Source: a virus (lineage: Duplodnaviria; Caudoviricetes). From it: a stretch of DNA of 64,000 bases. The notes under the pieces are model-generated. The model worked only from the letters and a program-made list of their open reading frames with translations, was not told the DNA's origin and ran no database searches. Shown here one piece after another: positions 14 to 49,515 of this stretch. The position numbers were made by a program, and so were the translations under genes. Numbering within the stretch: position 1 is the stretch's first letter; every line of letters starts with the position of its first letter. The DNA lies in the IMG/VR virus record IMGVR_UViG_3300047160_005525, positions 1-64,000 of that record; one strand, given 5' to 3'.

Positions 14-1045
14 ATGACTGCACCCTTCGCCATGCCAGACACCAGCTTGCGCCCGTCCGTGCGCTCGCTCGTACGCGCCTGCGCGGGCGCAGCGCTGTTT
101 GCTTGCGGCGGCATTCCCAAGAGAAAAACCGATGAATGGCGCGCTGACGCAGGCGCATGGTACTTGTTGCGTGGCGCAGTACCGCCGGCCTTAACGACCG
201 ACGCCGAGGCGCTGGTGCGGACAGTCGTGTCGGATTTGATTTCGACATTGGCACCGCAAAGCGTGGCGGCAAAAATTTTCGCTAGGGGTCTGCAGCTGAC
301 GTTCGGCCAGGCCGGGCAGATCAGCGTGCCGACGTTGCTTGGTGATCCGAGCTTGGCGAGCTTCGTGGCCGAGGGCTGGCCGATCCCCGTCGTCCAATCG
401 GCGCTGGTCGAGCCGCTCGTGACACTCGTGCCGACGAAGCTCGCCTGCATCGTCGTGCTGACCACGGAGATGGTGCAGTCATCGAACGTCGAGGCGCTCG
501 TCCTCGACGCCTTGACCAGATCGGCTGCGCTGGCGCTGGACTCAGCGCTCCTCGACGCCAATCCAGCTAGCAGCGCGCGTCCTCCTGGCTTGCGCTACGG
601 CATCGCGGCGATCGCCGCCGATTCATCGCCTGAGCCGCTCTCGGCGTTGGTTAATGATATTGGTGCTTTATATGCCGCCGTTGCGGCGACGGCGGCACGG
701 GCGCCAGTCTATGTGATGTCATCGTCGCGTGCGTTCAGCACGCGTTATCTGCTTCCGCCCGGTTGGGCACCGGCCGATTCGCTCGGCAGTTTTGCCTTGC
801 ACGGGACGACGGACATGATTGCGATGGCACCGAATGCGATCGCATCGGCCTACGGAAGCAATGTGGAAATCTCGGCTAGCCGTGAGAGCGCGCTGCAGAT
901 GGAGACCGCGCCGACGGATTTAGCCACGGGACCGACTCGGTCGACCTGGCAAACGGATTGCGTTGCGATCCGGCTGAAGCTCCCGGTGGCGTGGGCGCTA
1001 CGCACGCCAAGGGCTGTAAGTTGGCTTACCGCGACGAATTGGTGA
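14..1045 (+). CDS. HK97-fold major capsid protein paralog (second capsid-like gene)
   Basis: Aligns by eye along its length with the capsid half of 8289-10967 (GLQLTFG/GLSLSFG, SFVAEG/SFVGEG, RPPGL, WQTDCVAIRL/WQTDSIALRM, ends TNW/ITW). Confidence 0.85.
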   Translation: MTAPFAMPDTSLRPSVRSLVRACAGAALFACGGIPKRKTDEWRADAGAWYLLRGAVPPALTTDAEALVRTVVSDLISTLAPQSVAAKIFARGLQLTFGQAGQISVPTLLGDPSLASFVAEGWPIPVVQSALVEPLVTLVPTKLACIVVLTTEMVQSSNVEALVLDALTRSAALALDSALLDANPASSARPPGLRYGIAAIAADSSPEPLSALVNDIGALYAAVAATAARAPVYVMSSSRAFSTRYLLPPGWAPADSLGSFALHGTTDMIAMAPNAIASAYGSNVEISASRESALQMETAPTDLATGPTRSTWQTDCVAIRLKLPVAWALRTPRAVSWLTATNW

Positions 1046-2586: not shown

Positions 2587-2695
2587 GGCCGCCCCCTCCG
2601 GAGAGAGGGCGGCCCCCTGCCATGCCTTGCCCTACCCGGCCAGACCCGACCATGCCGAGCCAGACCTTGCCCTGCCGCAAGACTAAAAGTTTCAC
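2587..2695 (-). ncRNA. GGY/NN pentamer-array cassette A (12 units + hairpin + putative antisense promoter)
   Basis: 12 RCC-NN units at 2619-2678; hairpin GGCCGCCC/GGGCGGCC at 2587-2615; GTGAAA-N4-TAGTCT on - strand at 2680-2695. Confidence 0.75.
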
Positions 2696-4095: not shown

Positions 4096-4358
4096 GCGAC
4101 CTAGAGGATCGAAGTGGTCAGCCTAAGCGGCTGACGGTTCGTGACTTGATCTCAGCGGCGCAGTCGGGCGATGCGAACACGCGCAAGCAGGCGTTCGCGG
4201 CGTATCTAGCTTGGAAGAAAGCAGCGCCGCAGATTCCTGATGCCAATCGACTCTCACAAATGGAATGCGACCTCTTGAACAAACTTTTTGTCGCAAAAGG
4301 GTTCAATGTCCCTGGCTACAAGCCGCCAGCGCCGCCTCGGCCTCGCCCGGCATACTGA
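4092..4358 (+). CDS. hypothetical protein
   Basis: ATGA overlap; open frame of 88 aa. Confidence 0.6.
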   Translation: MSDLEDRSGQPKRLTVRDLISAAQSGDANTRKQAFAAYLAWKKAAPQIPDANRLSQMECDLLNKLFVAKGFNVPGYKPPAPPRPRPAY

Positions 4359-7300
4359 CTTCATCCCGATCCGACCGCGTGACTGCTGGACGCAATGGCT
4401 CGACGAAATTATCTGGCCAGGGCGAGCGGCGCGCACGGAAAGCTTGCTGCAGCGGTGGGATGAAGACAAGCATCCGCGTGAGCCCGCGGGTAGCTCAGAA
4501 GGCGGGCAGTTCACGTCGGATGGTGGTGGTGAAGAAAGGGAAACGCATTCGTCTGTTCAGGCTGCGGTAGATGCTGCGCCGAAAGATGGCAATCTGGCAA
4601 TCTCTAATGTGAAAGGCACGCTTGATCAGGTGCGAGCACAGGCTAACCAAGCTGTTATCGATACCGGAAACCAGAAAGGAAAAGAATACGAAGTTGGTGC
4701 GGTGATCCACGTTGGTGATGAGTTGAAACATGGAACGGTAAAAGTTGGGATCGTTCACGGTACGAGCGAACAAATTCAGGAAGGTGAGCACGCTGGCAAA
4801 ATTCGGCATCATATCAAGTTTACTCACCTGGCTCCGGTCTTAAAACAATTTGGCGCTCATGAGTTAACGCATAATCATCCCAGTCTCTCTGTTGCGTCGA
4901 TGGGCGACATTGACGCGATGAATCGAACTCCAACAATGGTCTCCTTGCGTGCACATCATAGGGAAGATAGTTCATCGGTAATATCAATTCCGGGGCGAAG
5001 CGCTGATAATTTTCAACAATGGCGCGCGGAATTTAAGGGTCGGGAAGATTTGGGGAGCAATCCCGTACACTTTAAACAGTTTCTTCACGATGCTGGGGTA
5101 GGGATAATGAAGGCGCTGGGGGAGCGATTGTCGCTGGACGATAGAAAAAAGCTAGGAAATTTTGTTTCGGAAATATCCGAAAGATATAAGGATGATCCTG
5201 ACGCTGGTAAGAATTTTTTGTCAGGATATATTTTCCTTTCGGCTCTAGTGAAGGCAGGGATTGTTGAACACAACCATAAGATACCTAAAGAGCTAAAGCC
5301 AATTCTGAATAAATATAACGGATTGCTTTCGAAAGTTTTAAGAATTGGCAATAGCGTTATCGCTGATGCGCGTCGCGAAGATGTTAATCTGACCAAACAC
5401 GAGTGGAAGCCTGAGGAAGACAAGAAGGATTTTGATGAGAACGAATATTCACACTTTGACTGGGGCGACATGGAATGGATGTTTCGTTGGGACGAGTCGC
5501 AACACCCGCGCGAGCCGGGAGGTAGTCCAGAGGGCGGCCAGTTCAGTTCAGGCGGCGGTGGTGCAGGTGCCGAAGGTGGGTTCGAGTTCGTCTCGCCGAA
5601 CGTCTCCAACATTGGACTCGCGGTCGCGCACAATGCGCTTGGCGGAGAACGACAGAGCGCGCTGAAGCAGGCCTCGGGCGAGGTCGATCGGACGCTCGGT
5701 ATCACGAGCGAAGATCACGACATCATCGGCGCATGGAAGGATGGTGCCGAAAACTCGCTGATGTCGGTCTCGAAGGGAACGAGTTGGGATAAGCTCCGCG
5801 TTAGCGGAGCGATGAAGGGATGGCTCGGAGATCAGAAGCAGGTCCTGCTGTTTCGCGATGAGAAGGATGGGCCGGCTACGCTCTACAAGTTCGAATCTCC
5901 GGATGACGTTCAGAAAACTCATGAAAGAATGCTGGCCAATGGGCTTGCATTCCATACGCTGGTCCCGCACAAGGGTGGCACAACGGTTTTAGTCGCGGAT
6001 TTGGATGGATCGCTGCATCATGACACAATCGCAAAAGCCGCTGGCAAATCCCCCGTCGAATATCGGCAGGGAAAAGGCGAGTTCATCGGCACTCAGCAAG
6101 AAACCGGTGACGACCGAGCGCAGCGTGATGACGCGCGAAAAGCCTACGAAAAAATTATCAGACAATCCCCAGTTCAAGGAAGTAACGCAGCCTGGAACCG
6201 GATTCATAATCGGTGGGGTGAAACGCTAACCAAGCCGCATCCGCTCACAGCGGATAGCATCATGATCGAGGCCCCAGCGGTCAAGCGTAATTCGCTCAAA
6301 ATCAAGGACGTCGCCAAACAACTCAATGCCAGAGCAGGACACATCCTGCAGCAGCAGTTCGGCAAACCGTCCATCGAGGAATCCAGTCCGCAGACCGATG
6401 ACTATTTGGCTAGCTCTATCGCGGACGGCCTCAAGGCCGCGTTGACCAACGGCCACGCTTCACCGACATGGTACAGCGACAAGATGAAAGCGGCGATGAA
6501 CATCGCCGAGAGCATGCATCCCGAGATCGCGAAGAATCCCGACAAGCGATTCGGCTATATCGCAGCAATGGCGATTACCAGCCAGGGCGAGACGGTCGAT
6601 AGCAATGTTCGTCTTGCAGAGGAGGCTTACAAACAGTTCAATGAAACTGGAAAATTTCCAACCAATCTGGAAGTGAAGAATTCCGGCATCAATGGCAACA
6701 TGGAGAAGATGAACAAGCTGATCGAACGTTTTGGCGTCAAAGGCACGCATGAGTTCTTCGATAAGGAAATGACGGTGCGTGAACTCAAAGACATGACTGG
6801 TTACAAGGTCGGCCGCAGTTCGATGGATGATGTCGTCAACGGCTCGGCAGTGCTCGGCCCCAAGATCGGACTCGGGTTCTATCAAAACCTCAATGGCAAT
6901 TTCAAACCGTTGACGGCCGACATCTGGTTCATGCGCGCATGGGGGCGCATGACTAACACCGGCATTGGCCAGCCCGATATGAAACCGATTGCCGATCGTT
7001 TGCGCAATGCACTGAAAGAAGAGGGTCGCCCCGCGCCGGCTGATCTGGATAAGCTCGACAAGATTGCGACTGAAGTATTCGACCAGCACGAGCGTGATTT
7101 TGCCAAGCATGGCGACGAATACAAATCCGGCAAGCGCAGCAAGAGCGAATTGGTCTATGCGTCGGAGCGATTTGTCGATAGCTACGGCGGCAAGATGGTG
7201 GAAGCGCCGCGCGGGGCAGAGCATCGGCAATTCATCACCAGTGTATTCAACAAGGCGCTAGACAAGCTCAAGGCACAGGGCATCAATCTTTCGCCTGCAG

Positions 7301-7449
7301 CAGCGCAGGCGACGTGGTGGAATCCCGAGAAGGTGCTATACCAGCACCTCGGCGGTCGCACCAAAGACGTCTTCACCGATTACGAAAAGTCCTTGTCGAA
7401 ATACGAAAAGGAACATGGCCCCGCGTCGCAAGAAAGAAGTGCCGCTTGA
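4288..7449 (+). CDS. large multidomain head-associated (polyvalent) protein: JAB/MPN-like domain + unknown domain + HhH-glycosylase-like domain
   Basis: Two RWDExxHPREPxGSxEGGQFxS motifs; THNHPSLSVASMGD (JAB-like); GPKIGLGFYQNLNGNFKPLTADIWFMRAWGR (HhH-like); start codon uncertain. Confidence 0.7.
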   Translation: MSQKGSMSLATSRQRRLGLARHTDFIPIRPRDCWTQWLDEIIWPGRAARTESLLQRWDEDKHPREPAGSSEGGQFTSDGGGEERETHSSVQAAVDAAPKDGNLAISNVKGTLDQVRAQANQAVIDTGNQKGKEYEVGAVIHVGDELKHGTVKVGIVHGTSEQIQEGEHAGKIRHHIKFTHLAPVLKQFGAHELTHNHPSLSVASMGDIDAMNRTPTMVSLRAHHREDSSSVISIPGRSADNFQQWRAEFKGREDLGSNPVHFKQFLHDAGVGIMKALGERLSLDDRKKLGNFVSEISERYKDDPDAGKNFLSGYIFLSALVKAGIVEHNHKIPKELKPILNKYNGLLSKVLRIGNSVIADARREDVNLTKHEWKPEEDKKDFDENEYSHFDWGDMEWMFRWDESQHPREPGGSPEGGQFSSGGGGAGAEGGFEFVSPNVSNIGLAVAHNALGGERQSALKQASGEVDRTLGITSEDHDIIGAWKDGAENSLMSVSKGTSWDKLRVSGAMKGWLGDQKQVLLFRDEKDGPATLYKFESPDDVQKTHERMLANGLAFHTLVPHKGGTTVLVADLDGSLHHDTIAKAAGKSPVEYRQGKGEFIGTQQETGDDRAQRDDARKAYEKIIRQSPVQGSNAAWNRIHNRWGETLTKPHPLTADSIMIEAPAVKRNSLKIKDVAKQLNARAGHILQQQFGKPSIEESSPQTDDYLASSIADGLKAALTNGHASPTWYSDKMKAAMNIAESMHPEIAKNPDKRFGYIAAMAITSQGETVDSNVRLAEEAYKQFNETGKFPTNLEVKNSGINGNMEKMNKLIERFGVKGTHEFFDKEMTVRELKDMTGYKVGRSSMDDVVNGSAVLGPKIGLGFYQNLNGNFKPLTADIWFMRAWGRMTNTGIGQPDMKPIADRLRNALKEEGRPAPADLDKLDKIATEVFDQHERDFAKHGDEYKSGKRSKSELVYASERFVDSYGGKMVEAPRGAEHRQFITSVFNKALDKLKAQGINLSPAAAQATWWNPEKVLYQHLGGRTKDVFTDYEKSLSKYEKEHGPASQERSAA

Positions 7450-8288: not shown

Positions 8289-10967
8289 ATGCCATTACCC
8301 AAACCGCGTAAAGGGCAGAGTCAATCAGACTTCATGGCCGCCTGCATGCACGAAGCCTTTGGTTCTGACGCGCCGAAGGATCGTACACAACAGCAAGCGA
8401 TTGCAATGTGTATGGGGGCTTGGCGCGAAGCGCATCCATCGGCACCTCCGCCACCGAAGAAAGCCGATGACGACAAAGGCAAAGCCAAGAAACCTTACGG
8501 CGAGGTCGAGTACGCAGACCCTGGATATCAAGAGGACAAAAAGAAAAGATATCCGATCGACACCGAAGCTCACATCAGGGCCGCCTGGAACTATATTAAT
8601 AAGCCGAAGAATGCCGCGAAGTATTCGAGCGAAAATCTGGCAAAGGTTAAAGCCAAAATCGTTGCCGCTTGGAAGAAGGTGATCGACAAAGAGGGGCCGC
8701 CATCGGCTGCGGATAACAAGAAGCAGCAAATCGAACGCGTCATCAGGCGCTGGCATGACAAGTTCGGCCGTGATCCATCGGTGGCAATACTCGCACGTTT
8801 CAGTGCTGACGACATCCCTGAGCCGGATGACGATGAGAGCAAGTCGGATTTTCTTGACCGCTGCCAAGATGAAATCGGCGATGGTGACGATGACGACGAT
8901 GCCGAAGAAGCTTGCGAGCAGGCTTGGGAAGATGCGCAGGATGGCGATGACGAGGACGAAGAGCGGCGCGCGCCCGAGCTTGTACACAAGGCGCACAGCG
9001 GCGAGGTGGATGGCGTCGAGTTTGTGCTCTCGGACGACAGCATAGATCGCATGGGCGATGTAATTGTGAGTGAAGGATGGGACCTAGCTTCGTTCAAGCG
9101 CAATCCCGTCTGTCTCTTCAACCACTCTGCGATGCTGCCGATAGGTAAATGGGAAAATCTTCGCGTCGAAAAGGGTGAGTTGCGCGGTCATCTCCAACTT
9201 GCGCCCGAGGGTACGTCGCCGCGGATCGATGAAATTCGCAGGTTAGTCGATGCCGGCATTCTTCGTGCCGTCAGCGTTGGCTTCCGTCCGCTCGAAAGCG
9301 GTCCGCGACACGAAAACGGAAAAACGCTGGGAATGGTTTTTACGAAATCGGAACTGGTCGAGACATCTCTCGTATCGGTTCCGGCGAATCGCAATGCTCT
9401 CGCGGTTGCGAAGTCATTGCGTATTTCTCCTGCAACGCAGGACCTCGTCTTCGGCGGGAAAGCCTACAAAGACGAGACCACCGTGCGGCGCGGGCTAACT
9501 GGCGGGCATGCCAAAACTGCTCGAAGCGATGGAGGCGGCGTCATGTCGCTCACCCAACGAATCTCCGACTTGCAGACCTTGATGGTCGACAAGCGGGACG
9601 AACTGGAGTCGCACCTGGAAAAACAGGACGACTCGAATATCAGTGATAGTGATCTTGAGAAGACCCAAACGCTCAACGCCGAGATCGCGCAGCTGGAGAA
9701 GCAACACGCTGCGCTGGTCGAGGCGGAGAAGCGGTTGGCGAAGACGGCCGATGGCGGCGGCAATAGTGGTAGTCGCAGCCGGGCGCTGGCGACGACGGCG
9801 TTCACGCAGCCGAAGAACGACGGCGGTGTGACTGCTCCGCTCATCATTCCGAACGCGCGCAAGAAGGACCTCGATCCGATCGATCTGCTCGTGCGAGCGG
9901 GTACGATCAGCTACGTGTCGAAAGTCTGGAATCAGACCACGGAGAATACGCGGCTGAAGATCTATGGCGATGACGAGGGCACAAAGATCGTGTCCGACAT
10001 CATCTTACGCGCGCCATCGGCACCAGCAATGACGAACGTAGTTTCCTGGGCACAGGAACTCGTACAAGTTGTATATTCTGATCTGCTCAACCTGCTGTTA
10101 GCCAAGAGTATCTACACCAGACTTGCAGCGAAGGGGCTTTCGTTGAGCTTCGGCCGTGCGGGCAAGATCAACATTCCTGCTCGCTCGCGTACGCCGACTA
10201 TAGCTGGGAGCTTTGTGGGTGAGGGGCAGGCCATTCCAGTTCGAATGGGCGCTTTTACAACGCAGACTCTCGTTCCGAAGAAAATGGCCGTCATCAGCGT
10301 GTGGTCTCGTGAGATGGACGAGCATAGCATTCCTGCGATTGAAGGCGTGCTACGCGAAGCAGTGCAAGAAGATACCAGCGTCGCGCTCGACAGTGTACTC
10401 ATTGATACGAATGCGGCGACTGCGATCCGGCCGCCTGGTCTGCTCAATGGCGTAACGGCTACAACTGCGACGGCGGGCGGTGGCCTCGACGCGTTGATCG
10501 GTGACATCAAGGCGCTGGTCGGTGCGTTGTCGACGAATACCTATGGCAATGTTCGCAGTCCGGTATGGATCGCAAATCAAGTCGACATGCTGTCGGCTGG
10601 GTTGGCCATGGCGGCGAATACCGGTATCTTCCCGTTCCGTGACGAAGTTGCGGCCGGGCGGCTGGCGAATATACCTATTATCGACAGCGCGACGGTTCCG
10701 GCTAAAACCCTTATCTTGGTTGACGCTGCGGACTTTGTCGCGGTGGGCGGGGAAGCTCCCCGATTCGAGTTAAGCGATCAAGCGACTCTTCATATGGACG
10801 ATTCCGCGCCTGCAGAACTTGTTGGCACGGGCAGTCCTGGAGCGGTTGCTTCACCGCAGCGCTCGCTCTGGCAAACCGACTCGATCGCGCTTCGGATGAT
10901 CATGCCAATGAATTGGTGGCAGCGCCGTCCGGGTACGATTGCCTACACGACCGGAATCACCTGGTAA
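8289..10967 (+). CDS. HK97-type prohead protease - major capsid fusion with N-terminal accessory domains (DUF6582-like)
   Basis: Protease motifs DRMGDVI, LFNHS, LRAVSVGFRP, ELVETSLVSVPAN; C-terminal HK97 capsid; YADPGYQEDKKKRYPIDTEAHIRAAWNYIN recalled as DUF6582-like. Confidence 0.92.
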   Translation: MPLPKPRKGQSQSDFMAACMHEAFGSDAPKDRTQQQAIAMCMGAWREAHPSAPPPPKKADDDKGKAKKPYGEVEYADPGYQEDKKKRYPIDTEAHIRAAWNYINKPKNAAKYSSENLAKVKAKIVAAWKKVIDKEGPPSAADNKKQQIERVIRRWHDKFGRDPSVAILARFSADDIPEPDDDESKSDFLDRCQDEIGDGDDDDDAEEACEQAWEDAQDGDDEDEERRAPELVHKAHSGEVDGVEFVLSDDSIDRMGDVIVSEGWDLASFKRNPVCLFNHSAMLPIGKWENLRVEKGELRGHLQLAPEGTSPRIDEIRRLVDAGILRAVSVGFRPLESGPRHENGKTLGMVFTKSELVETSLVSVPANRNALAVAKSLRISPATQDLVFGGKAYKDETTVRRGLTGGHAKTARSDGGGVMSLTQRISDLQTLMVDKRDELESHLEKQDDSNISDSDLEKTQTLNAEIAQLEKQHAALVEAEKRLAKTADGGGNSGSRSRALATTAFTQPKNDGGVTAPLIIPNARKKDLDPIDLLVRAGTISYVSKVWNQTTENTRLKIYGDDEGTKIVSDIILRAPSAPAMTNVVSWAQELVQVVYSDLLNLLLAKSIYTRLAAKGLSLSFGRAGKINIPARSRTPTIAGSFVGEGQAIPVRMGAFTTQTLVPKKMAVISVWSREMDEHSIPAIEGVLREAVQEDTSVALDSVLIDTNAATAIRPPGLLNGVTATTATAGGGLDALIGDIKALVGALSTNTYGNVRSPVWIANQVDMLSAGLAMAANTGIFPFRDEVAAGRLANIPIIDSATVPAKTLILVDAADFVAVGGEAPRFELSDQATLHMDDSAPAELVGTGSPGAVASPQRSLWQTDSIALRMIMPMNWWQRRPGTIAYTTGITW

Positions 10968-11324: not shown

Positions 11325-12773
11325 ATGGCAGCACGCGCGCTTTTGGCTCGTGGTTTGCGAACGGTCGCCCGTGCGATTGAAGGACAGTATCGACCAGGAC
11401 CCTATAATCTTCCGATAACCGGCGGCTGGTTGCCCGATGGGGCGCCGATCAATTGGTGGCAAACGGGCATGATCCCGGTCACTGGTTATCGTAATGCCAT
11501 GGTCGAAGCATGCGTTTCCGCATATTCGCAAACAACTGCAATGCTCCCCGGCGATCACTGGAGAACGAACACTAAGGGCGGGCGCGAGCGGGTCAAGAAC
11601 AGTGCGTTGTCACGCATACTGCGCCATCCGAATGCATACCAGAGCATCTCCGATTTCATGCTCAACGCGACACGGCAACTTTATTTGGACGGCAATGCTT
11701 ATGCACTCGCGCTGCGCAACGATAGGTTCGAGGTTACTGAACTTCATCTGATGGACAGCCGGGTTTCCCGCCCGGAGCTTGCTGTCGACGGTTCGGTTTT
11801 TTACCAACTCGCTGGCAACATGGTGATCCAGCAGCAGGTCGGAGACAGTGCTCGGTTGATGGTGCCACAGCGTGACGTGCTGCATATTCGATTGCATGCA
11901 GATCGGCGCTGGCCTTATCCGATCTTCGGCGAGTCACCGTTGCTCGCGGCGTTGGGCGACATCGAGACAGGCTCGGCGATCACCGATCAGCAAATCCAAT
12001 TCTATCGCAATCAGGCGCGACCGAGCGCGGTGCTGTCGACCGACTTGCAACTCGACAAAGATCAAGTGCAGTTTCTACGTGACCGCTGGGACGAGCAGGC
12101 GCGCGGGCTTAATCAAGGTAAGACGCCGATCTTGACTGCGGGCTTGAAGGTGCAGCCATGGACGGTGGGCGGGCGCGACGCGCAGATCGCGGAGATGCTG
12201 AAGATCAGCGAATCGCACATTGCGCTGGTGTATCGCATTCCATTGCCTTTGCTTGGATTGACAAGCGGATCAGCCGGCGGCACGGAAGCACTCATACAAT
12301 TATGGCTGGCCTCAGGGCTCGGTTTTTGTCTCAATCATATCGAGGAATCTTTTGGCTTACTCTTTCAGCTTAAAGGTCAGCCCGATGAGTATTGCGAGTT
12401 TGATACGTCTGCCCTTTTACGCTCGCTGTTCAAAGATAGGATTGAAGGCTTAACCCGCGCAGTACAAGGCGGTGTTTATAGTCCTAATGAAGCCAGGGCG
12501 GAAGAAGGTTTAGAGAAAACACCCTATGGCGACGAGCCGCGTGTTCAGCAACAGGTCGTGCCACTTTCTGCCGCCGCAGGAATCCCGCACGCGCCGGGGC
12601 CGCACGCACCGCCGAGCGCGGCTGGACAACCGGCACCAGGTGCTCCGCAGCCAAAGCCGCCGACAGCGGAAACGCCAACAGCGGTAAAGGATCATCGCGA
12701 TGACATACGACGAGAAGCACAACGGCTCCACGCCGTCGTCAGTCGGATCGGAAGAAACCGATCTGTTAACTGA
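11325..12773 (+). CDS. HK97-family portal protein
   Basis: LRHPNAYQSISDF, LYLDGNAYA, VLHIRL, FYRNQARPSAVL, GVYSPNEARAEEGL. Confidence 0.93.
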   Translation: MAARALLARGLRTVARAIEGQYRPGPYNLPITGGWLPDGAPINWWQTGMIPVTGYRNAMVEACVSAYSQTTAMLPGDHWRTNTKGGRERVKNSALSRILRHPNAYQSISDFMLNATRQLYLDGNAYALALRNDRFEVTELHLMDSRVSRPELAVDGSVFYQLAGNMVIQQQVGDSARLMVPQRDVLHIRLHADRRWPYPIFGESPLLAALGDIETGSAITDQQIQFYRNQARPSAVLSTDLQLDKDQVQFLRDRWDEQARGLNQGKTPILTAGLKVQPWTVGGRDAQIAEMLKISESHIALVYRIPLPLLGLTSGSAGGTEALIQLWLASGLGFCLNHIEESFGLLFQLKGQPDEYCEFDTSALLRSLFKDRIEGLTRAVQGGVYSPNEARAEEGLEKTPYGDEPRVQQQVVPLSAAAGIPHAPGPHAPPSAAGQPAPGAPQPKPPTAETPTAVKDHRDDIRREAQRLHAVVSRIGRNRSVN

Positions 12774-14445
12774 AGTTACGCGCGAGGTTCTTGGCGAAGT
12801 CATTGTACAAGAGCGCGAGAAAGCGCAGCGCGACTGGCAACGCGACCGCGAATTGATAACAGCGCAAGCTGAGGAGGCAATTGCCCGTGCTGAATCCAAA
12901 GCGGAAACGGCAATCGCTCGTGCTGATGCTAGAGCAGAAACAGCCATCGCTCGCGCTGATGCCGTAGCGGAGGCGACCGCGCGTGAGGCTGCCGAGATGC
13001 GCGCGCAGATGAGCGAGATGCGCTCGGAGATCGAGCGGATGATGTCGATCCGCTTGGCCGAGCTTCGTGATGGAGCGGTCGGGCCGAAAGGAGAAAAGGG
13101 CGATCAGGGTCTGATGGGGCCGCAGGGGGAACGCGGTGTCGCTGTCATGGGCGAAACGGGGCCGCCAGGACTGAAGGGCGAGCCTGGAATCGCTGGCCGC
13201 GACGGCCGCGACGGCGCTCCGGGGCCAGCAGGGCCGCAGGGCGAACGCGGAAGCGATGGCATCAGCATTAAAGGTCCGATTGGTCCCGAGGGTCCTCCAG
13301 GGCGCGACGGTGCTCAAGGCCCTCCTGGAGAGAGCATCGTAGGTCCGCAAGGTGAGCGGGGATTACCAGGTGAAGCGATTGTTGGGCCGCAGGGTGAACC
13401 GGGTTTGAAGGGTGATAAGGGCGACGTAGGCGAGCGCGGTTTGCCTGGAGAAGCGATTGTAGGGCCGCAAGGTGAGCAAGGCGTTGCTGGCGTACAGGGT
13501 GAACGCGGTGAAGCAGGAGAGAAAGGCGATGTCGGCGAGCGAGGTATCCAAGGCGAAGCCGGGCCGTCCGGCTCGGCCGGTCCAAAGGGCGATCCAGGAG
13601 AGCGCGGCGAGCAAGGCCCGCAAGGTGAGGTCGGACCCATTGGTGCCAAAGGCGACGTCGGAGAAAAAGGCAATGCCGGTGATCCCGGTGTGCCAGGAAT
13701 ACGAGGAGAAAAAGGAGAAAGAGGCGAGCGAGGACTGGACGGAGCAATTGGCTCTCAGGGTGTGCCTGGAAGCGTGGGAGAACGCGGAGAAAAAGGGATT
13801 GACGGCGCCCGCGGCGAAAGGGGCGAGCGCGGCGAGCAGGGAGCGCGCGGCGAGAAAGGCGATCAGGGCATTCCTGGTGGAGTTGGACCTGCTGGTCAAC
13901 GAGGTGAACGCGGCGAGCGCGGCGAGCAAGGTTCGCCTGGTAAATTGACGATCTGCAAAGTCTGGCAGAAGGACGAGATCGTCTACGAATCTCAATTGCG
14001 CACGCACGAAGGTTCGTTATGGCAGGCGCTGAAAGATACAGCGCAGCTTCCCGGTCACGCTGATTGGATTTGTCTCGCCACGGCTGGCATCGATGGCGCT
14101 GGCATCAACCCGTGCGGGCTCTATCAGGAAAATCATGTGTACCGTCGTCTCGACTTGGTCACTGTCAACGGGTCAACCTTCGTTGCTAAGCGCGATGCTC
14201 CTGGCATATGCCCCGGCGAGCATTGGCAGCTTACTGCTAGCCAAGGCAAACGTGGTATTGCCGGCGAAAAGGGCGAGCGTGGTCCGATTGGGCCAAAGGG
14301 TGAAGCCGGTCAAGCCGCTCCGCGCATTACAGGCTTCCGTCTTGATCCGAAAAATTATCGTGCCGTTGCACGAATGTCTGATGGCTCAGAACTGCCGCTA
14401 GAACTGCGCGAACTATTCGAGCAGTTCAATGATGAGACTCGATGA
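12700..14445 (+). CDS. collagen-like head-associated protein
   Basis: N-terminal coiled coil, long Gly-X-Y tract, C-terminal W-rich modules (VWQKDEIVY...GSLWQALKDT). Confidence 0.85.
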   Translation: MTYDEKHNGSTPSSVGSEETDLLTEVTREVLGEVIVQEREKAQRDWQRDRELITAQAEEAIARAESKAETAIARADARAETAIARADAVAEATAREAAEMRAQMSEMRSEIERMMSIRLAELRDGAVGPKGEKGDQGLMGPQGERGVAVMGETGPPGLKGEPGIAGRDGRDGAPGPAGPQGERGSDGISIKGPIGPEGPPGRDGAQGPPGESIVGPQGERGLPGEAIVGPQGEPGLKGDKGDVGERGLPGEAIVGPQGEQGVAGVQGERGEAGEKGDVGERGIQGEAGPSGSAGPKGDPGERGEQGPQGEVGPIGAKGDVGEKGNAGDPGVPGIRGEKGERGERGLDGAIGSQGVPGSVGERGEKGIDGARGERGERGEQGARGEKGDQGIPGGVGPAGQRGERGERGEQGSPGKLTICKVWQKDEIVYESQLRTHEGSLWQALKDTAQLPGHADWICLATAGIDGAGINPCGLYQENHVYRRLDLVTVNGSTFVAKRDAPGICPGEHWQLTASQGKRGIAGEKGERGPIGPKGEAGQAAPRITGFRLDPKNYRAVARMSDGSELPLELRELFEQFNDETR

Positions 14446-14447
14446 AA

Positions 14448-14571
14448 GAGGGCCGACTCTTCGGATGAAAAGTCAGCCCTCACCTCGCCATGCCTTGCCT
14501 AGCCTCGCCGTGCCTCGCCCTGCCTGGCCAAGCCTGGCCTCGCCAAGACCATGTTAGTCTAGCATTTTCAC
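14448..14571 (-). ncRNA. GGY/NN pentamer-array cassette B (13 units)
   Basis: Hairpin 14448-14481; RCC-NN units 14482-14546; GTGAAA-N4-TAGACT on - strand at 14556-14571; NN code matches 14416-14445. Confidence 0.8.
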
Positions 14572-14590
14572 TTGTTAAAGGAAGCTTCTC

Positions 14591-15241
14591 GTGGCCGATA
14601 TGAGTGTCACAAATACTGTTGTCGCGGCGACAATGCACGATTTGGTGACGCTGGCTGAAGCTAAGCAATATCTTGGGATGAATCTGACTGATACGACTGA
14701 GGACGCTCAGCTTCAGCTTTTTATCACTACAAATTCTCACATCATTGCTCGTGAGTGCGATCGCATTTTTGCGAAAGAGACGATCGAGGAAACATGGCGC
14801 GAGGTTTACGACGGCCGCGTGTTTTTGATGCATTGGCCGGTAGTCAAGACAGATATCACAAGCGTCGTCGCCGCTGGCACTGGTGTAACGATCGATGAAT
14901 ACGAATTAGAGGAATCTTCAGGCAAGCTTTCATACGTGAAGGTGAACGATCCGGCATCAGCGCCATGGCCGCAAAGCGTGATCATCAATTACACCGGCGG
15001 CTACAATCTTCCAGACGAAGCGCCGTATCCGCTGAAGCATGCTTGCATCTTGATGGTCCGCGAAGATCAGATACGGCAGCGACAAGCCCAGACCGCAGGC
15101 ATTCGGCAAATCTCGCATCACGAGGCGCGTGTTTCGTTCTTCGATCCTAATGCGCTCTTGATACGAACTGCTGGCATGGGTTCGCCGGCGATGCAGACGG
15201 TCGCGAAGATTCTCTACAAGTACACGCGGAACTGGGTGTGA
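14591..15241 (+). CDS. head-tail connector (HK97 gp6-like adaptor)
   Basis: LVTLAEAKQYLG, YTGGYNLPDEAPYPLKHACILMV; position after the portal. Confidence 0.8.
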   Translation: MADMSVTNTVVAATMHDLVTLAEAKQYLGMNLTDTTEDAQLQLFITTNSHIIARECDRIFAKETIEETWREVYDGRVFLMHWPVVKTDITSVVAAGTGVTIDEYELEESSGKLSYVKVNDPASAPWPQSVIINYTGGYNLPDEAPYPLKHACILMVREDQIRQRQAQTAGIRQISHHEARVSFFDPNALLIRTAGMGSPAMQTVAKILYKYTRNWV

Positions 15242-17037: not shown

Positions 17038-17790
17038 CTAGATGGAGTCTCGCATGATCTGGCGCTTGCGGTCATATCGCAGTTTTGCGTTGATACGATC
17101 GCAAGCGTGGCAACGTTTCCCTGGTTCTTTTGGATGGCCTCTCACGCAAACGCTGCAAGATCGAATAGCGCGTAAATGGGCTTTGGTTTTTTCAGAATGA
17201 TGTCTTCCAAAGAAGCCATTGCGTTCGCCGTTCTGATCTTTGCCCAGTCGTGGATTGGTAATTCTCATTGGCTTGCCAAATGCATGGTGTTGCTCGCCGT
17301 GAGGCGTATTTGCGATTTGGCGAGCGCGTTGTTCCGCCGTCATTGGACCGGCGGCTTTGGTGCCAGCGCTGATTGTTGCTCTTTCTGCTTCTGTGCGCTG
17401 AGTGCCTTTAGGGACTGGATTTACGATGCCGCCACGTTCGATGATTTTGGCGCGAATCTTGTTCTTCTCTTTTTCTGACATATGCGTGCCAAATCGAAAG
17501 TTATGTACGCCATGTCGCTTTAATGAATGCGAACCACCGGCGAGAACATTCCAACCGATGAATTTGTGAGGTCGTAAAGCTTCTTCTAGAAACTCACATT
17601 CTTCAACTGATCCTTGGAAGAGAATGAGGCTTCGAAACTTTTTCGGCACTCTTCGATAAATGCCAGTCGCGTATTGATGTTGAGAAAATCGTTTTGGTGG
17701 TCGTTGAGCAGTGAATCCGATGTAGCCGTCTGTACGCGGATCAACACAAGTCTCGTCGTATAGCCAATAGACACTCGTCGTCTTATCCAT
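17038..17790 (-). mobile_element. free-standing GIY-YIG homing endonuclease with NUMOD3-like repeats
   Basis: VYWLY...GYIGFT..PPKRFSQH, GWNVLAGG, FFGRHHSEKTKAHL; antisense to the late operon. Confidence 0.8.
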
Positions 17791-17937
17791 GGAAGACCTC
17801 CTAGAAGGTTTTTCGTGGCTAGAGCCGGGGCGACGAGGGCAAACGCCGTCTCGGCTCGCTGTAACTCTAGCGTAACTGGTGATTTCACCCAAGAGCCCAG
17901 TCTGAAATCTGGCCTCACAACCTATGGAGTAACTACC

Positions 17938-20031
17938 ATGCCTATCTCTTTCGCAAACATTCCATCTAATATTAAGGTCCCTTTATATTGGGTGGAAGTG
18001 GATAACGCGAATCAAGCGTAGGTCCCTTTGTCGAGCAATCGACATCGAACATCGGGTGAACTCGGGGAAACTCCAGATCGGACAATCCCGAGCCAAGCTG
18101 CCGCAACGGCAGAAGGTGTAACGACTAGAGCGCAAGCTCGTAGGATCAAGCGATCCGAAGCGCCCGACGCCCCAAGTGGGCGGTGATATAGTCTCCTCCA
18201 CATAGGAATATGTGGCAGTCCGCAAAAGGACGGTAGCGAGAGTAGCGAACTCGCTGCGAAGATTAGGCCCTCAATGGCAGGTTTGCCGACGCTCAATCTG
18301 CGAGCGTTGCTGATCGGCACGATGAATGCTGACGGCACTGGCACTCAAGACATCCCGGTTGCCATAGGCACGCAAGCATCAGCCGACGAGAAGTTCGGCG
18401 TAGGCTCTGAACTCGCGCAGATGTTCAAAGCCTACTTTAAAAATAATTTTGCCAATGAGGTGTGGGCGGGGCCCGTGGCTCCGTCTACTAACTCGCAAGC
18501 AGCAAGTGGCACGATCACGGTGACGACGCCGCCGAGCGAGGCCGGAACGATCAATCTCTACATCGCCGGTCATCATGTGGCGGTCAACGTCGGCATGAGT
18601 GATACGGCTGAGCAGGTTGCGCTTGAAATCGCTAACGCGATTAATGCAATCGAACCCGCTTTGCCGGTGACAGCGGCAGCAGGGACCGGAGCGACAACTA
18701 CGGGAACTGGCACCGGCAATTCGACGGGCACGACCAGTCTGACCGTCTCGTCGTCAACCGGTACCATCGCGATCGGCGCGACCGTGACTGGCACCGGCGT
18801 TCCTGCCAACACGACGATTGCGAGTCAGACCTCGGGCACGATCGGCGGCGATGGCGTGTACGTCACCAGTAACCCGACGACGCTGTCGGCGGCAGCGATC
18901 ACGACCACGCTGACCAGCAATACGAACGTGGTCACGGTGACTTGCACCTTCCTGGGCGTCAACGGCAACGAGATTCGCATCGAGCAGGACTACTACGGAA
19001 TGCTCGGCGGCGAACGGCCGGTGACGGGGCTGGTGCTGACGTTGCCGGCGACAAACTTCTTGACCGGCGGTGTCGGCACGCCGGACTTTACCAACTTGAT
19101 CATAGCCATGGGCGAGACGCCGTTTGAGTATCTCTGCGTGCCTTACTGGGATTCCAACACCTTGCTCGCGTTTGAGGAGGAGATGGGATTCGGAGATTCG
19201 GGTCGCTGGGGATGGCAGCGTCAGCTGTTCGGCCATGTGTTCCTTGCCAAGCGCGGTCAATACTCGGACCTCGTCACCTGGGGCTTGACCCGCAACAGCG
19301 GATTGATCTCGGTGCTGGCGTTCGAGAATCCCACGCCGACGCCGATGTACGAGATGGCGGCGGCTTACACGGCGAAGGCGCAGCGCGCGCTCAGCAACGA
19401 CCCGGCCAGGCCGCTGCAGACCTTGCAACTCAACGGCACGCTGCCGGCGAAGCTGCACGATCGCTTCAACTTCGTCGAACTCAACTCCCTCGCCTCAAGC
19501 GGCCTTGCCATCCAGAAGTGTTGGGAAGGCTCGGGCATGTCGCAAATCGCCCGCGAGCAAACAACCTACCAACTTAATCTTTATGGCCAGGGCGATGACG
19601 CGTACGAACTCGTCACGACGCTCGCGACGTTGGCGAAGATTCTCCGCAATCAACGTCACGCGATCACGAGCAAGTATCCCAGACACAAACTTGCGAATGA
19701 CGGAACACGCTTCGGGCCAGGGCAGGCGATTGTGACCCCGGCTATTATCAAAGCCGAATTAGTCGCACAATACCGGATGGATATGTGGGACGGCCTCGTC
19801 GAGGACGTCGCCGACTTCAAGCGCTTCCTCCTGGTGGAAAGGGACCCGGATAACCCTAATAGGTTAAACGTGCTTTATCCGCCTGACTTGATAAATCAGC
19901 TGCGAATCTTCGCCGTGCTCGCACAATTTAGACTCCAGTACGATCGTGGGATCGATGTTGCCATTATCGGCTATACGGGACTCGCAGGAATCGCTGGACC
20001 TGGTGGTGCCTTAACTGGTACTGGTGGCTAA
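17938..20031 (+). CDS. contractile tail sheath (Mu gpL-like), interrupted by a group I intron at 18004-18267
   Basis: Exon 1 MPISFANIPSNIKVPLYWVEVD + exon 2 PSMAGLPTL...; sheath motifs YTAKAQRALSNDPARPLQTL, VERDPDNPNRLNVLYPPDLINQLRIFA. Confidence 0.92.
18004..18267 (+). mobile_element. ORF-less group I intron (264 nt)
   Basis: U at 5' splice site pairs with IGS GGUCC; P3 TCGGGTG/CGCCCGA; P4 CTCGGG/CCCGAG; P7 GACTA/TAGTC; P9 CCACATA-GGAA-TATGTGG; terminal G; in-frame TAG removed by splicing. Confidence 0.9.
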
Positions 20032-21182: not shown

Positions 21183-21914
21183 TCAAGTCTTACGCGACTT
21201 GCGGATGGCATGCATAAGCAATCGGGCTTGCCGGTTTCTCTCTCGTTGCTTGAGTCGTTCGTGCCGCTTGGTGATCGTGTTCTGGTGAGAATCCAGCTTC
21301 GCTTGGACTGCCTCATCAGGAGAACGCTTATCTCGCTCAGCGATAGCCTTTCGGTGAGATTCCAACTTTGCTCGCACTCTTTCGTCAGGTGATGGATCGA
21401 GTTTTGCGTATGGTCCAAAGTACTCTTCGGCTGCGATGCAGTAAGCGGTGTGAGCGTCTTCTACCGTGAAATAGACACCAAGACTAATGCTCCGTCCGTT
21501 GACTTTGATCCGGGCTACGTATCGTTGAATGCCTTTGTGCCAGGTGACTCCTTTTGGAAGAGTCTTTCCTTCGATTAGCTTACGATTTCTAGCTTGTTCT
21601 GTATCATTTCCCGGACGAAGATTTGACCAACGGTTATCGCTGGGGTCGCCGTTCTTATGATCTACTTCGGGTTTGTCCCAAGCTTCGGTCTTTCCTGGCC
21701 AGTCGCCGGTCATATAGAGAACGGCCAAGCGGCTAGCCTGATAGAGTTTACCGTCGATCTTGATTTCTAGACGCCCGTCTTTCTTAGGCGTGCCTGCAAC
21801 GCTACCCACGAGGACGCGGCCGTTCGGCTGTATGCGCCAGGTGAAGACGCCGGTGTCAGGATCGTAGTTGAGGATTTCGTCGAGACGAGCTTGCGTTAAG
21901 ATGTCATCAGCCAT
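21183..21914 (-). mobile_element. HNH-AP2 homing endonuclease
   Basis: LDEILNYDPDTGVFTW, VDHKNGDPSDNRWSNLR, AP2-like GVTWHK..RYVARIKVNG..LGVY. Confidence 0.88.
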
Positions 21915-22011
21915 TGGCGATGCTCCTACATCGTTGGTGGTTAGGGACTCGCGGGTGAGTGACACCATCCGTGAGTCCCGCTCAGACTATCACAAGGCAA
22001 TGAGGTGAACC

Positions 22012-47798: not shown

Positions 47799-47911
47799 GA
47801 AACGGCCGCCCATTTTGTGACGACCGTTTCTCCCCTGCCATGCCTTACCGGGCCATGCCGCGCCCCGCCAGACCGGACCTTGCCACGCCCAACCGGGCCA
47901 TGCCGCGCCCT
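47797..47911 (-). ncRNA. GGY/NN pentamer-array cassette C (15 units)
   Basis: Hairpin 47797-47832; units 47837-47911; NN code matches the endolysin at 47136-47174. Confidence 0.82.
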
Positions 47912-48231
47912 GGCTAGCGACCTGGCGTTTTAGCGCTCGGTCGCTGCGACATCTTATCATCATTTACGTTTTAGAAAGTGAGCCGCCGCCGAGTGAGCCG
48001 AAGGTGGGTTAGCGTCGAGTTCGCAATCACGCCGGCAATGCTTGCAGCAGCGACAGTTCTTTTTTGGCTTGAGCGGACACGAGCGCGGCAGCACCGAATT
48101 TCGGAGCTTGCATTGCGGGCAGGATTTCGCGACGGGCGGCATGGAAATGGCAATATCAGACATGCGCAACGACTGAATTATTTAACTTCGCAACTCAATT
48201 AAATAATTTCGTAATTCACAGGAGGGATCAA

Positions 48232-48334: not shown

Positions 48335-48724
48335 ATGGCTCGCATACCGGCTCATCTGATTCGTCGTCTAAAACAAGAGGAGAGATGCATGAGCTATACG
48401 CTTCCAAGCGGGATGCAAGTTACTTGCCAAATTTCTTACGTTGATGCCGCGGGCAATCCCGCTGTCGTTGATGGTGATGTGGCGTGGTCATCGAGCGATG
48501 AAACTAAGCTCGTCGTCTTTGTCAACTCACAGGATTCGACAAAGGTCGTCCTGCGAACTGTCGGGCCAGTCGGCCTCGTTCAAGTCAAAGCAACGGCTGA
48601 TGCTGATTTAGGCGCGGGCGTTCGCGAACTTGTCACTACCGCCGATGTCGACATTATCGCCGGTGAGGCAGTTGCCGGCATGATTTCACCAATCGGTCCC
48701 GCCGAGCCAATCCCCGCGGCATAA
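48335..48724 (+). CDS. Ig-like beta-sandwich protein
   Basis: YVDAAGNPAVVDGDVAWSSSD..VQVKATADADLG. Confidence 0.65.
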   Translation: MARIPAHLIRRLKQEERCMSYTLPSGMQVTCQISYVDAAGNPAVVDGDVAWSSSDETKLVVFVNSQDSTKVVLRTVGPVGLVQVKATADADLGAGVRELVTTADVDIIAGEAVAGMISPIGPAEPIPAA

Positions 48725-48726
48725 AT

Positions 48727-48833
48727 GAGAGCGAGAGCTTTCGCTCCCGCTCTCCCCTACCTTGCCTCGCCGGGCCGTACCATACCATTCCTTGCCCGAC
48801 CACACCCCGCCGCGCCCCACCAGACCTCGCCGC
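48727..48833 (-). ncRNA. GGY/NN pentamer-array cassette D (15 units)
   Basis: Hairpin 48727-48754; units 48759-48833 (one TCC variant); NN code matches 48602-48640. Confidence 0.82.
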
Positions 48834-48850
48834 GGTTAATCTCTAGTATC

Positions 48851-49392: not shown

Positions 49393-49500
49393 GAGAGCGA
49401 GAGCTTTTGGCCCTCGCTCTCCCTTGCCTCGCCGCGCCGCGCCAAGCCTTGCCGTGCCTGGCCTAGCCACGCCCTACCCCGCCTAGCCGCGCCCCGCCAC
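49393..49500 (-). ncRNA. GGY/NN pentamer-array cassette E (15 units)
   Basis: Hairpin 49393-49421, nearly identical to that of D; units 49426-49500; NN code matches 49600-49635. Confidence 0.8.
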
Positions 49501-49515
49501 ATTAAAAATAAAATC

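What the first reader, a model, noticed from the sequence alone, without database searches (positions are those of the whole stretch)
14416..14571. Cassette B encodes the 3' end and stop codon of a homolog of the collagen-like gene it follows
The - strand NN order is TT GA CA TT CA AG GA AC GA TA, read as F-E-Q-F-Q-S/R-E-T-E/D-stop(TA.). The local gene ends TTC GAG CAG TTC AAT GAT GAG ACT CGA TGA (FEQFNDETR*, 14416-14445). Six dinucleotides are exact and the stop codon is in register. The putative target abuts the cassette insertion point, as expected for a homing-type element.
Basis: partly seen in the sequence, partly recalled or inferred. Interest (0 to 1): 0.85.

Follow-up and report, generated by a model that had tools for sequence, protein, structure and literature searches.

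The report
Solo VIPR guide aimed at sister phage
This short repeat is a stand-alone guide-RNA gene of a phage's CRISPR-like VIPR silencing system, and its code spells the end of the neighbouring fibre gene as a rival sister phage writes it, not as the phage itself does, so guide and resistant gene copy sit side by side as a weapon with its own antidote.

Summary
Observation confirmed. Window 14478-14547 (- strand) holds 14 tandem YNNGG units followed by a hairpin. It is a solo guide-RNA gene (vrRNA) of the VIPR type described in 2026 preprints, and one of 15 in this 76.8-kb temperate phage record. Under the published one-base-skip rule, its variable dinucleotides decode to FEQF-H/Q-S/R-E/D-T-E/D-stop.

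- **Own gene:** the collagen-like gene ends 32 bp away and matches only 14/20 letters (20/28). This is still the best match in the whole genome (shuffle P about 0.004).
- **Relatives:** every homologous locus examined in other phages lacks the cassette.
- **Sister allele:** the nearest one (93% identical protein) ends FEQFHSETD. It is the only one of about 185 family tails that fits the guide. It differs from the own tail at exactly the three codons where guide and own gene disagree.
- **DNA matches:** natural alleles one letter off (19/20) exist. No 20/20 DNA match was found, and the sister's DNA could not be fetched.
- **Neighbouring guide D:** it has perfect 26/26 DNA targets in the homologous gene of two related phages.

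'Homing' is untested. No vipr gene was found, and the record ends inside the main array. This scan noted the same arrangement earlier on other genomes.

The parts
14551..14578 (-). Promoter-like site TTAACA-16 nt-TAACAT directly upstream of the array, placing an RNA start at about the first unit
   Evidence: Consensus scan. It was the only promoter-like site in 14300-14750; shuffles gave a mean of 0.4. This is a consensus match only, and expression is not shown.
14478..14547 (-). Guide region of solo vrRNA B: 14 tandem YNNGG units. Units 1-11 are the likely guide; the last 2-3 units are probably a semi-constant 3' handle.
   Evidence: The last-unit composition is constrained across all 15 arrays. 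The verified target of guide D does not match that guide's last three units.
14443..14486 (-). 3' tail of the vrRNA: a 15-bp hairpin with GAG...CUC at its base, then UUUCAU. It overlaps the last two units.
   Evidence: Fold energy is -29.1 kcal/mol on the - strand against -19.5 on the + strand, because of G.U pairs. The same strand asymmetry holds in the four other hairpin-tailed cassettes.
14416..14456 (+). Own, non-matching copy of the target: the last 9 codons and stop of the collagen-like gene plus 11 nt downstream. It matches 20/28 guide letters, 14/20 in the first ten units.
   Evidence: At 71% NN match it lies below the 80% cut-off that the VIPR authors used for targets.
12700..14445 (+). 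Collagen-like fibre gene (581 aa) whose sister alleles are the inferred target
   Evidence: Translation. PHROG tail-fibre and collagen-like families. Homologs.
14591..15241 (+). Head-tail adaptor gene. In cassette-free relatives it starts 0-5 nt after the fibre gene's stop, or overlaps it.
   Evidence: PHROG 442; junction alignment.
14449..14457 (+). Left copy (AGGGCCGAC) of an imperfect direct repeat. The right copy, GTGGCCGAT, lies at 14591-14599. The two flank a 142-bp insert, and both resemble the conserved ATGGCCGAY start of the adaptor gene in relatives.
   Evidence: Alignment with 11 cassette-free loci. Its meaning (target-site duplication or microhomology) is inferred.
48755..48834 (-). 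Solo vrRNA D, built the same way. It serves as the calibration case.
   Evidence: Its first 13 units match 26/26 letters in the homologous gene of two IMG/VR phage contigs, L079 and L080 (27/32 over all 16 units). The own copy at 48602-48648 matches 23/32 over all 16 units and 21/26 over the first 13.
47833..47912 (-). Solo vrRNA C. Its best own-genome match is antisense inside the adjacent endolysin gene at 47127-47173.
   Evidence: No perfect target was found in IMG/VR.
2615..2679 (-). Solo vrRNA A, with no significant local match
49412..49501 (-). Solo vrRNA E, with no significant local match

Best explanation
Cassette B is a stand-alone guide-RNA gene (solo vrRNA) of a VIPR system.

**The RNA.** It is transcribed from the - strand, antisense to the late operon. 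The RNA consists of about 11 guide units of GGY-NN, a 2-3 unit handle and a terminal hairpin.

**How it would act (inferred).** By analogy with the studied VIPR systems, Vipr protomers coat the RNA, one per unit. They flip out the GGY bases and present the NN pairs. The NN pairs bind double-stranded DNA that carries the same dinucleotides separated by one free base.

**What it is aimed at.** The guide is written against the last nine codons and stop of the collagen-like fibre gene as a close sister phage carries it (FEQFHSETD-stop). The phage's own copy, 32 bp from the cassette, differs at three amino-acid-determining codons. Its stop codon is TGA where the guide reads TA. The own copy therefore falls to about 70% match and should be spared.

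**Expected effect (inferred).** Binding at the end of the fibre gene in a co-infecting or resident rival would block transcription through the fibre/adaptor junction into the downstream late genes.

**Why the two lie together (inferred).** Because guide and resistant allele are adjacent, recombination moves them as one unit.

**Shown here:**
- the repeat anatomy and strand;
- the best-in-genome partial self-match;
- absence of the cassette from every homologous locus examined;
- a sister allele that fits the guide at protein level;
- a perfect DNA target for the sister cassette D.

**Inferred:** expression, Vipr loading, silencing, and the selective reason for linkage.
For: 1. **Anatomy.** There are 14 YNNGG units plus a structured 3' tail. 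This is one of 15 such arrays, all on the - strand, including a 9-unit main array at the record's end. This fits the published vrRNA definition of 9-16 YNNGG units plus a tail.
2. **Strand.** All five hairpin tails fold 3.6-10 kcal/mol better on the - strand. A promoter-like site lies just upstream.
3. **Rule.** Only the one-base skip puts the best genome-wide match next to the array. The skipped base is the wobble base.
4. **Statistics.** P is about 0.004 for B alone and 2.4e-7 for the six solo guides together.
5. **Insertion.** The 40 loci, the 29 and the 3 carry no array. In the family loci (all but one or two of them) the stop abuts or overlaps the adaptor gene's ATG.
6. **Sister allele.** P0068, 93% identical over 166 aa, ends FEQFHSETD. 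It is the only one of about 185 family tails that fits FEQF[HQ][SR][ED]T[ED]-stop. Its three tail differences from the own allele fall on guide units 5, 6 and 9. That is 3 of 9 footprint codons against 10 of 157 elsewhere (Fisher P = 0.024).
7. **DNA near-matches.** Cassette-free alleles reach 19/20 (L110, L052) and 18/20 (L042, L096, L082), against 14/20 for the own gene.
8. **Calibration.** Guide D matches 26/26 letters in the homologous gene of two related phages, whose protein reads ...GVRNIITP... where the own copy reads ...GVRELVTT....
Against: - No 20/20 (or 28/28) DNA match exists in IMG/VR, the JGI metagenome contigs, or one genome per GTDB species. None within 3 mismatches was found in 401 genomes of the family of Bradyrhizobium elkanii.
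- The sister contig's DNA could not be read. Because the relaxed scan did not return it, either it is not in the DNA collection or its stop is TGA. Its Ser codon could also be TCN, which would cost two letters.
- The 18-19/20 alleles were found with patterns that already fixed 16 letters. Such scans also return chance hits, for example the unrelated gene in L069/L078 at 19/20.
- The unselected sample of 40 homologs matches no better than the own gene.
- No vipr gene was found in the record.
- No expression data could be obtained.
Confidence: 0.85

Rival explanations
1. RNA-guided homing or drive. The cassette plus the adjacent resistant allele is a mobile unit. VIPR binding at the empty site of a sister genome, perhaps with a nuclease-type accessory protein, provokes a break or a stalled fork. 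Repair from the cassette-bearing genome then copies guide and allele into the rival, as free-standing homing endonucleases of T-even phages do.
For: - The target lies within 32 bp of the insertion point, and guide units 11-14 would reach across the empty junction. L101 matches units 12-14 on the adaptor start.
- The cassette is present or absent among homologs.
- An imperfect 9-nt direct repeat flanks the 142-bp insert.
- Four of six solo guides sit beside their own diverged target copy.
- A ParB/DUF6551-like protein is encoded next to the main array, and a YqaJ-type exonuclease next to solo guide F.
Against: - The studied VIPR systems repress transcription and do not cut. Nuclease accessory genes are reported for other types only.
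- No nuclease is shown to act with this system.
- Own immunity here comes from substitutions upstream of the insert, not from disruption of the site by the insert.
- No pair of near-identical genomes with and without the cassette was available.
Confidence: 0.15
2. Hired-gun or hijack use. The phage encodes no Vipr of its own. Its solo guides and array load onto the Vipr protein of a rival phage or resident prophage and turn that protein against its maker or another competitor. This has been proposed for VIPR-null SUSP1-like phages and F5 satellites.
For: No vipr was detected in 76.8 kb by Pfam RAMP models, by SUSP1 Vipr sequence, or by one structure model. Solo vrRNAs on VIPR-null elements are documented.
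Against: - The record breaks inside the main array, exactly where a vipr gene would be expected upstream.
- No terminase was recognised either, so the record may be incomplete.
- Vipr proteins are too divergent for sequence searches.
- Fifteen guides is a large investment for a phage without its own effector.
Confidence: 0.15
3. Self-regulation. The RNA binds the phage's own fibre/adaptor junction through its partial match and tunes late-gene expression.
For: The best match in the own genome is the adjacent site.
Against: - The match is 70-71%, below the 80% used for real targets.
- The mismatches fall on codon positions 1-2, where a sister allele fits the guide.
- Guide D has perfect foreign targets and only 72% self-match.
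Confidence: 0.04
4. Chance resemblance. The array is real, but its similarity to the neighbouring gene means nothing.
For: A score of 20/28 is only one letter above the next-best genome-wide score (19), and 19 is also reached with a wrong skip length. Pattern-selected database hits include unrelated genes.
Against: - Position, register and wobble alignment all agree.
- Shuffle P is 0.004 for B and 2.4e-7 combined.
- The only family tail that fits the guide belongs to the closest relative.
Confidence: 0.03

Closest known systems
Type II VIPR system of Escherichia phage SUSP1 and the Pseudomonas fulva prophage (Vipr + Vap1 + vrRNAs; bioRxiv 10.64898/2026.04.26.720920 and 10.64898/2026.04.26.720927)
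   Same: Both have tandem GGY-NN pentamers (9-16 units) followed by a structured 3' tail. Targets are read with one skipped base per unit, aligned to the codon wobble position. Targets are genes of competing mobile elements, on either strand, and there is no self-match at or above 80%. I located the SUSP1 arrays with the same pattern.
   Different: - The tail is a plain GAG...CUC hairpin, not a pseudoknot.
- The last 2-3 units look constant and unpaired with the target.
- Guides are scattered through the structural and lysis modules, far from the main array.
- The main array's units have a different, short tail.
- No Vipr or Vap1 homolog is detectable.
Solo (orphan) vrRNAs of VIPR-null SUSP1-like phages and F5 satellites (bioRxiv 10.64898/2026.10.15.759431)
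   Same: These are stand-alone guide genes away from any vipr gene. Their self-match is lower than their match to rivals, which avoids autoimmunity. Their footprints are wobble-aligned.
   Different: Those guides sit at the former VIPR locus and target vipr, other vrRNAs, satellites or host REP decoys. This one is inserted at a structural gene junction and targets the sister allele of the very gene it abuts. I did not find that arrangement described in the parts of the three preprints I read.
Free-standing homing endonuclease genes of T-even phages (marker exclusion; from general knowledge)
   Same: A selfish cassette sits between two conserved genes. It attacks the allele of a neighbouring gene in related phages, and the carrier's own allele is protected by nearby substitutions.
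   Different: Recognition would be by RNA and a RAMP filament rather than by a protein nuclease. No cleavage or copying is shown. This is a functional analogy only.
CRISPR arrays and crRNAs
   Same: Both have a variable guide and a constant handle bound by RAMP proteins, directed against foreign DNA.
   Different: There is no repeat-spacer array, no contiguous spacer, no cas genes and no PAM. The guide information is spread over the dinucleotides of a pentamer repeat.

Membership tests
VIPR vrRNA | 9-16 tandem YNNGG (GGY-NN) units with constant GGY and hypervariable NN | tested here: met
   There are 14 units with no mismatch to YNNGG. The NN strings differ among all 15 arrays.
VIPR vrRNA | Structured, conserved 3' tail after the repeat tract | tested here: met
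   A hairpin of 15 bp, z = -5.3, more stable on the - strand. Cassettes A-E all have such a hairpin tail, and in B-E its base reads GAG...CUC (A's hairpin is GC-rich without that base). The form differs from the SUSP1 pseudoknot.
VIPR vrRNA | Natural target obeys the one-base-skip rule, with the skip at the wobble position | tested here: met
   - Guide D matches 26/26 letters in a homologous gene of two phages.
- Guide B fits the sister allele at protein level, and DNA alleles reach 19/20.
- Only skip 1 gives a local maximum.
- A perfect DNA target for B itself was not found.
VIPR vrRNA | No self-target at or above 80% NN match | tested here: met
   The best own-genome match of B is 20/28 = 71%.
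VIPR vrRNA | Expressed as a small RNA of roughly 100 nt that co-purifies with Vipr | not testable with these tools
Only a promoter-like site and a terminator-like hairpin are seen.
VIPR system | A Vipr (minimal RAMP, about 20 kDa) gene in the same element | tested here: inconclusive
   - Pfam RAMP and Cas7 models gave no match.
- SUSP1 Vipr and Vap1 gave no match.
- The neighbours of the main array are a DUF6551/ParB-like protein, a TcmP-like protein and a ParB_N+DUF5131 protein.
- One modelled candidate shows no RAMP fold.
- The record ends inside the main array, so vipr may lie beyond it.
Homing element | Presence/absence polymorphism at a fixed site between conserved genes | tested here: met
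   The cassette is absent from every homologous locus examined. The fibre-gene stop and the adaptor ATG abut there.
Homing element | Cleavage of the empty site and copying of the element into it | not testable with these tools
   No nuclease is linked to this system, and no near-identical genome pair is available.

The most novel reading that the evidence does not exclude
Each solo guide together with the adjacent diverged gene copy is a self-propagating 'poison-antidote' module. The guide disables the rival's allele. Only recombinants that take up both the guide and the resistant allele escape. The pair therefore spreads through a phage population like an RNA-guided homing or drive element, and it seeds new guides at the very genes they attack.
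Probability: 0.2. Interest if true: 0.85.

Novelty: new variant of a known kind. Interest (0 to 1): 0.6.

Why it matters
VIPR was described only in 2026, and mostly in one coliphage clade, where guides cluster at the vipr locus and attack satellites or rival VIPR loci.

Here a temperate, Bradyrhizobium-type soil phage scatters guides through its virion and lysis genes. Each of four guides lies beside the phage's own altered copy of the gene it attacks. For one of them the foreign target is proven at the DNA level. For cassette B the target is identified at the protein level in the nearest sister phage.

This has three consequences.
- It extends VIPR targeting to allele-level warfare between sister phages over structural genes.
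- It shows how self-immunity is written: non-synonymous changes at the read codon positions.
- It raises a testable idea, that guide and resistant allele are linked so that they travel together.

It also gives a practical rule for finding targets of orphan guides: look next door.

Tried and rejected
- **Rfam:** at gathering thresholds over the whole window, only a group I intron was found and nothing for the arrays. No tRNA or tmRNA was found.
- **Exact guide patterns for B:** the 14-unit pattern was scanned in IMG/VR and the 10-unit pattern in the metagenome and genome contigs. There were no hits.
- **Fuzzy search for B:** 12 units with up to 3 mismatches in 401 genomes of the family of Bradyrhizobium elkanii WSM2783 gave none.
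- **GenBank phages:** blastn of the junction region gave no match.
- **Guides C and F:** exact 13-unit patterns in IMG/VR gave none.
- **All 15 guides against the 111 fetched loci:** only B and D stand out, and those loci had been fetched with them.
- **Search for vipr:** I tried Pfam and PHROGs on about 45 ORFs, PDB sequence search of three candidates, and the ESM Atlas for the two genes next to the main array. I also tried Pfam RAMP models on six frames, SUSP1 Vipr/Vap1 by phmmer and tblastn, and a structure model of the 212-aa ORF 51509-52147 (pLDDT 79). For that model Foldseek PDB gave no hit, and VIA wide gave a best Z of 5.8 to pilin- and RelE-like folds, with no RAMP.
- **Relatives of the DUF6551-like gene in IMG/VR:** none.
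- **Earlier notes on look-alike stretches:** none.
- **Readings considered and rejected:** a G-quadruplex or i-motif element, a telomere-like end repeat, a terminator-associated repeat, and a protein-coding reading of the repeat (the ORFs 14429-14557 and 14480-14833 are artefacts of the repeat).
Full report
**What is there**

Between the stop of a collagen-like fibre gene (12700-14445, +) and the start of the head-tail adaptor gene (14591-15241, +) lies a 145-bp spacer. On the - strand it reads, in order:
- a promoter-like TTAACA-16-TAACAT site (14578-14551);
- 14 perfect YNNGG units (14547-14478);
- a 15-bp hairpin followed by UUUCAU (14486-14443).

The hairpin contains G.U pairs. It is 9.6 kcal/mol more stable on the - strand than on the + strand, so the functional strand is the - strand.

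**It is one of a family**

The window is bases 1-64000 of a 76,776-bp IMG/VR virus record. The record carries 15 such arrays, all on the - strand:
- five with hairpin tails, at 2615-2679, 14478-14547, 47833-47912, 48755-48834 and 49412-49501;
- one at 71358-71442;
- nine head-to-tail units filling the last 780 bp of the record, each ending in a short constant tail.

The phage is temperate and myovirus-like. It encodes an integrase, a sheath, a portal, a protease-capsid fusion, an adaptor and an endolysin. Homologs of the fibre gene occur in prophages or MAGs labelled Bradyrhizobium and Pseudolabrys.

**What kind of thing it is**

I then found and read the preprints. VIPR systems pair a minimal RAMP protein (Vipr) with vrRNAs. 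A vrRNA is made of 9-16 GGY-NN pentamers and a 3' tail. The NN pairs recognise double-stranded DNA in which successive dinucleotides are separated by one skipped base, usually the codon wobble base. Solo vrRNAs away from vipr are also described. Cassette B meets the sequence definition of a vrRNA.

**Is the match to the neighbouring gene real?**

I scanned the whole genome on both strands with each guide and skip lengths 0-3.
- For B, the single best site under skip 1 is 14416-14456 (+).
- Shuffling the order of units gave a match this good within 1 kb 8 times in 2000. With the three semi-constant 3' units removed it was 37 times in 2000.
- Guides C, D and F behave the same way. Their best genome-wide matches lie 100-700 bp from their own arrays, in frame with the wobble position, and only under skip 1. 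A and E show nothing.
- Fisher's combined P over the six guides is 2.4e-7.

The partial self-match is therefore a property of these cassettes, not an accident of B.

**Calibration with cassette D**

The first 13 units of guide D match 26/26 letters in two IMG/VR contigs, L079 and L080. These contigs come from related phages with the same head-gene families. The match lies inside the homolog of the ORF next to D (48335-48724). The foreign protein reads ...ADLGAGVRNIITP... where the own protein reads ...ADLGAGVRELVTT.... Those contigs carry no arrays. The last three units of D do not match the target (1 of 6 letters). The last units are also compositionally constrained in all 15 arrays. I therefore take them to be a handle rather than guide; this is an inference.

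**The target of B**

The guide decodes to FEQF-H/Q-S/R-E/D-T-E/D-stop.
- **Unselected homologs.** Forty IMG/VR loci found by protein similarity all lack the cassette. Their stop overlaps or abuts the adaptor ATG (ATGGCCGAY). Their tails (mostly FEQFHDEAR) match the guide no better than the own gene does.
- **Exact scans.** These found nothing.
- **Relaxed scans.** With two units left free, the scans returned mainly tails of this gene family: 28 of 29 and 3 of 3 hits in IMG/VR, none with an array. They include alleles one or two letters off: L110 FEQFHSESE-stop and L052 FEQFQSETG-stop at 19/20, and L042, L096 and L082 at 18/20. These hits are pre-selected, and unrelated genes can also reach 19/20 (L069). 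Alone, they show only that the decoded peptide lies inside the family's natural range.
- **The decisive piece.** This came from the protein collection. Among about 185 family members, the closest by far is P0068, a 166-aa C-terminal fragment on a 1417-bp JGI contig. It has 13 differences from the own protein (93% identity), while the next relatives are at 57% or less. It ends FEQFHSETD and is the only tail that fits the decoded pattern.
- **Where it differs from the own tail.** Its three differences from the own tail FEQFNDETR are H/N, S/D and D/R. These are exactly guide units 5, 6 and 9, the units where guide and own gene disagree. That is 3 of 9 footprint codons against 10 of 157 elsewhere (P = 0.024).

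I could not read its DNA. The Ser codon (AGY or TCN) and the stop (TAR or TGA) remain open. The relaxed metagenome scan would have returned this contig if it were held there with a TAA or TAG stop.

**The insertion**

Aligned with cassette-free relatives, the own junction carries about 142 extra bases. They are bounded by AGGGCCGAC (14449-14457) and GTGGCCGAT (14591-14599). Both resemble the conserved start of the adaptor gene. The left copy forms part of the hairpin. This looks like insertion at the very start of the adaptor gene with duplication of, or recombination at, a short homology. I cannot say which.

**How it most likely works**

Shown:
- the anatomy and strand;
- the partial self-match;
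- absence of the cassette in relatives;
- a sister allele that fits the guide;
- a proven foreign target for D.

Inferred from the VIPR papers:
- the RNA is made and coated by Vipr;
- it binds the rival's fibre-gene end and blocks late transcription into the adaptor and tail genes;
- the own allele escapes, at about 70% match, because of three non-synonymous changes and a TGA stop.

Inferred from the arrangement:
- guide and resistant allele are kept adjacent because a guide that moved alone into a sensitive genome would attack its new carrier.

The studied VIPR type silences and does not cut. A ParB/DUF6551-like gene next to the main array and a YqaJ exonuclease next to guide F are merely suggestive.

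**What is missing**

No vipr gene was found by any sequence or structure test I could run (see Tried and rejected). The record ends inside the main array and no terminase was recognised. The record may therefore be incomplete, with vipr just beyond its end. Alternatively the phage borrows a rival's Vipr.

**Novelty**

The system and solo guides are published (2026 preprints). The hairpin tail and the scattering of guides through structural and lysis modules are variations. The placement of each guide beside the carrier's own diverged copy of its target is another. I did not find any of these described in the text I read. Earlier follow-ups of this scan reported the same 'solo guide beside recoded target' arrangement in three other genomes. 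Those are unchecked AI notes, not independent evidence, but they suggest the pattern is general.

Noticed in passing
L001:11994-12776 (genome 75994-76776): The record's last 780 bp are nine head-to-tail vrRNA units. Each starts with TGCGG and ends with CGAGG CAGGG plus a 13-16 nt AT-rich spacer. They have no hairpins, unlike the solo cassettes. The record breaks inside the ninth unit.
   Followed up: partly
L001:7358-7442 (genome 71358-71442): Solo guide F runs straight into the start codon of a YqaJ-type exonuclease gene. Its best genome-wide match (24/34) lies 450 bp inside that same gene.
   Followed up: partly
window 17958-18215 and 17038-17892: A group I intron (Rfam RF00028, 65 bits) lies just upstream of the tail sheath ORF. 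Beside it is a 284-aa - strand ORF with a NUMOD3 motif, probably a homing endonuclease.
   Followed up: no
window 21183-21968 (-): A free-standing HNH-AP2 endonuclease gene sits in the tail module. It is a second classical homing-type gene in the same phage.
   Followed up: no
window 14-1045 and 8289-10967: There are two capsid-like genes: a 343-aa ORF matching only the C-terminal half of major-head-protein profiles, and an 892-aa protease-capsid fusion. In the related contig L080 the gene order differs. There the homolog of the guide D target gene lies in the head module, between capsid and portal.
   Followed up: partly
L001:8361-11904 (genome 72361-75904, - strand): Three genes sit downstream of the main array: a DUF6551/ParB-like protein (399 aa), a TcmP-like methyltransferase-fold protein (265 aa) and a ParB_N+DUF5131 protein (514 aa). 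This looks like a DNA-modification or DNA-binding module, and one of them could be the VIPR accessory gene.
   Followed up: partly
window 1-64000 and L001: No large terminase was recognised anywhere in the record. The 1053-aa ORF 4288-7449 has no PHROG or Pfam family.
   Followed up: partly
window 14449-14457 and 14591-14599: An imperfect 9-nt direct repeat flanks cassette B. Both copies resemble the conserved start of the adaptor gene in relatives.
   Followed up: partly
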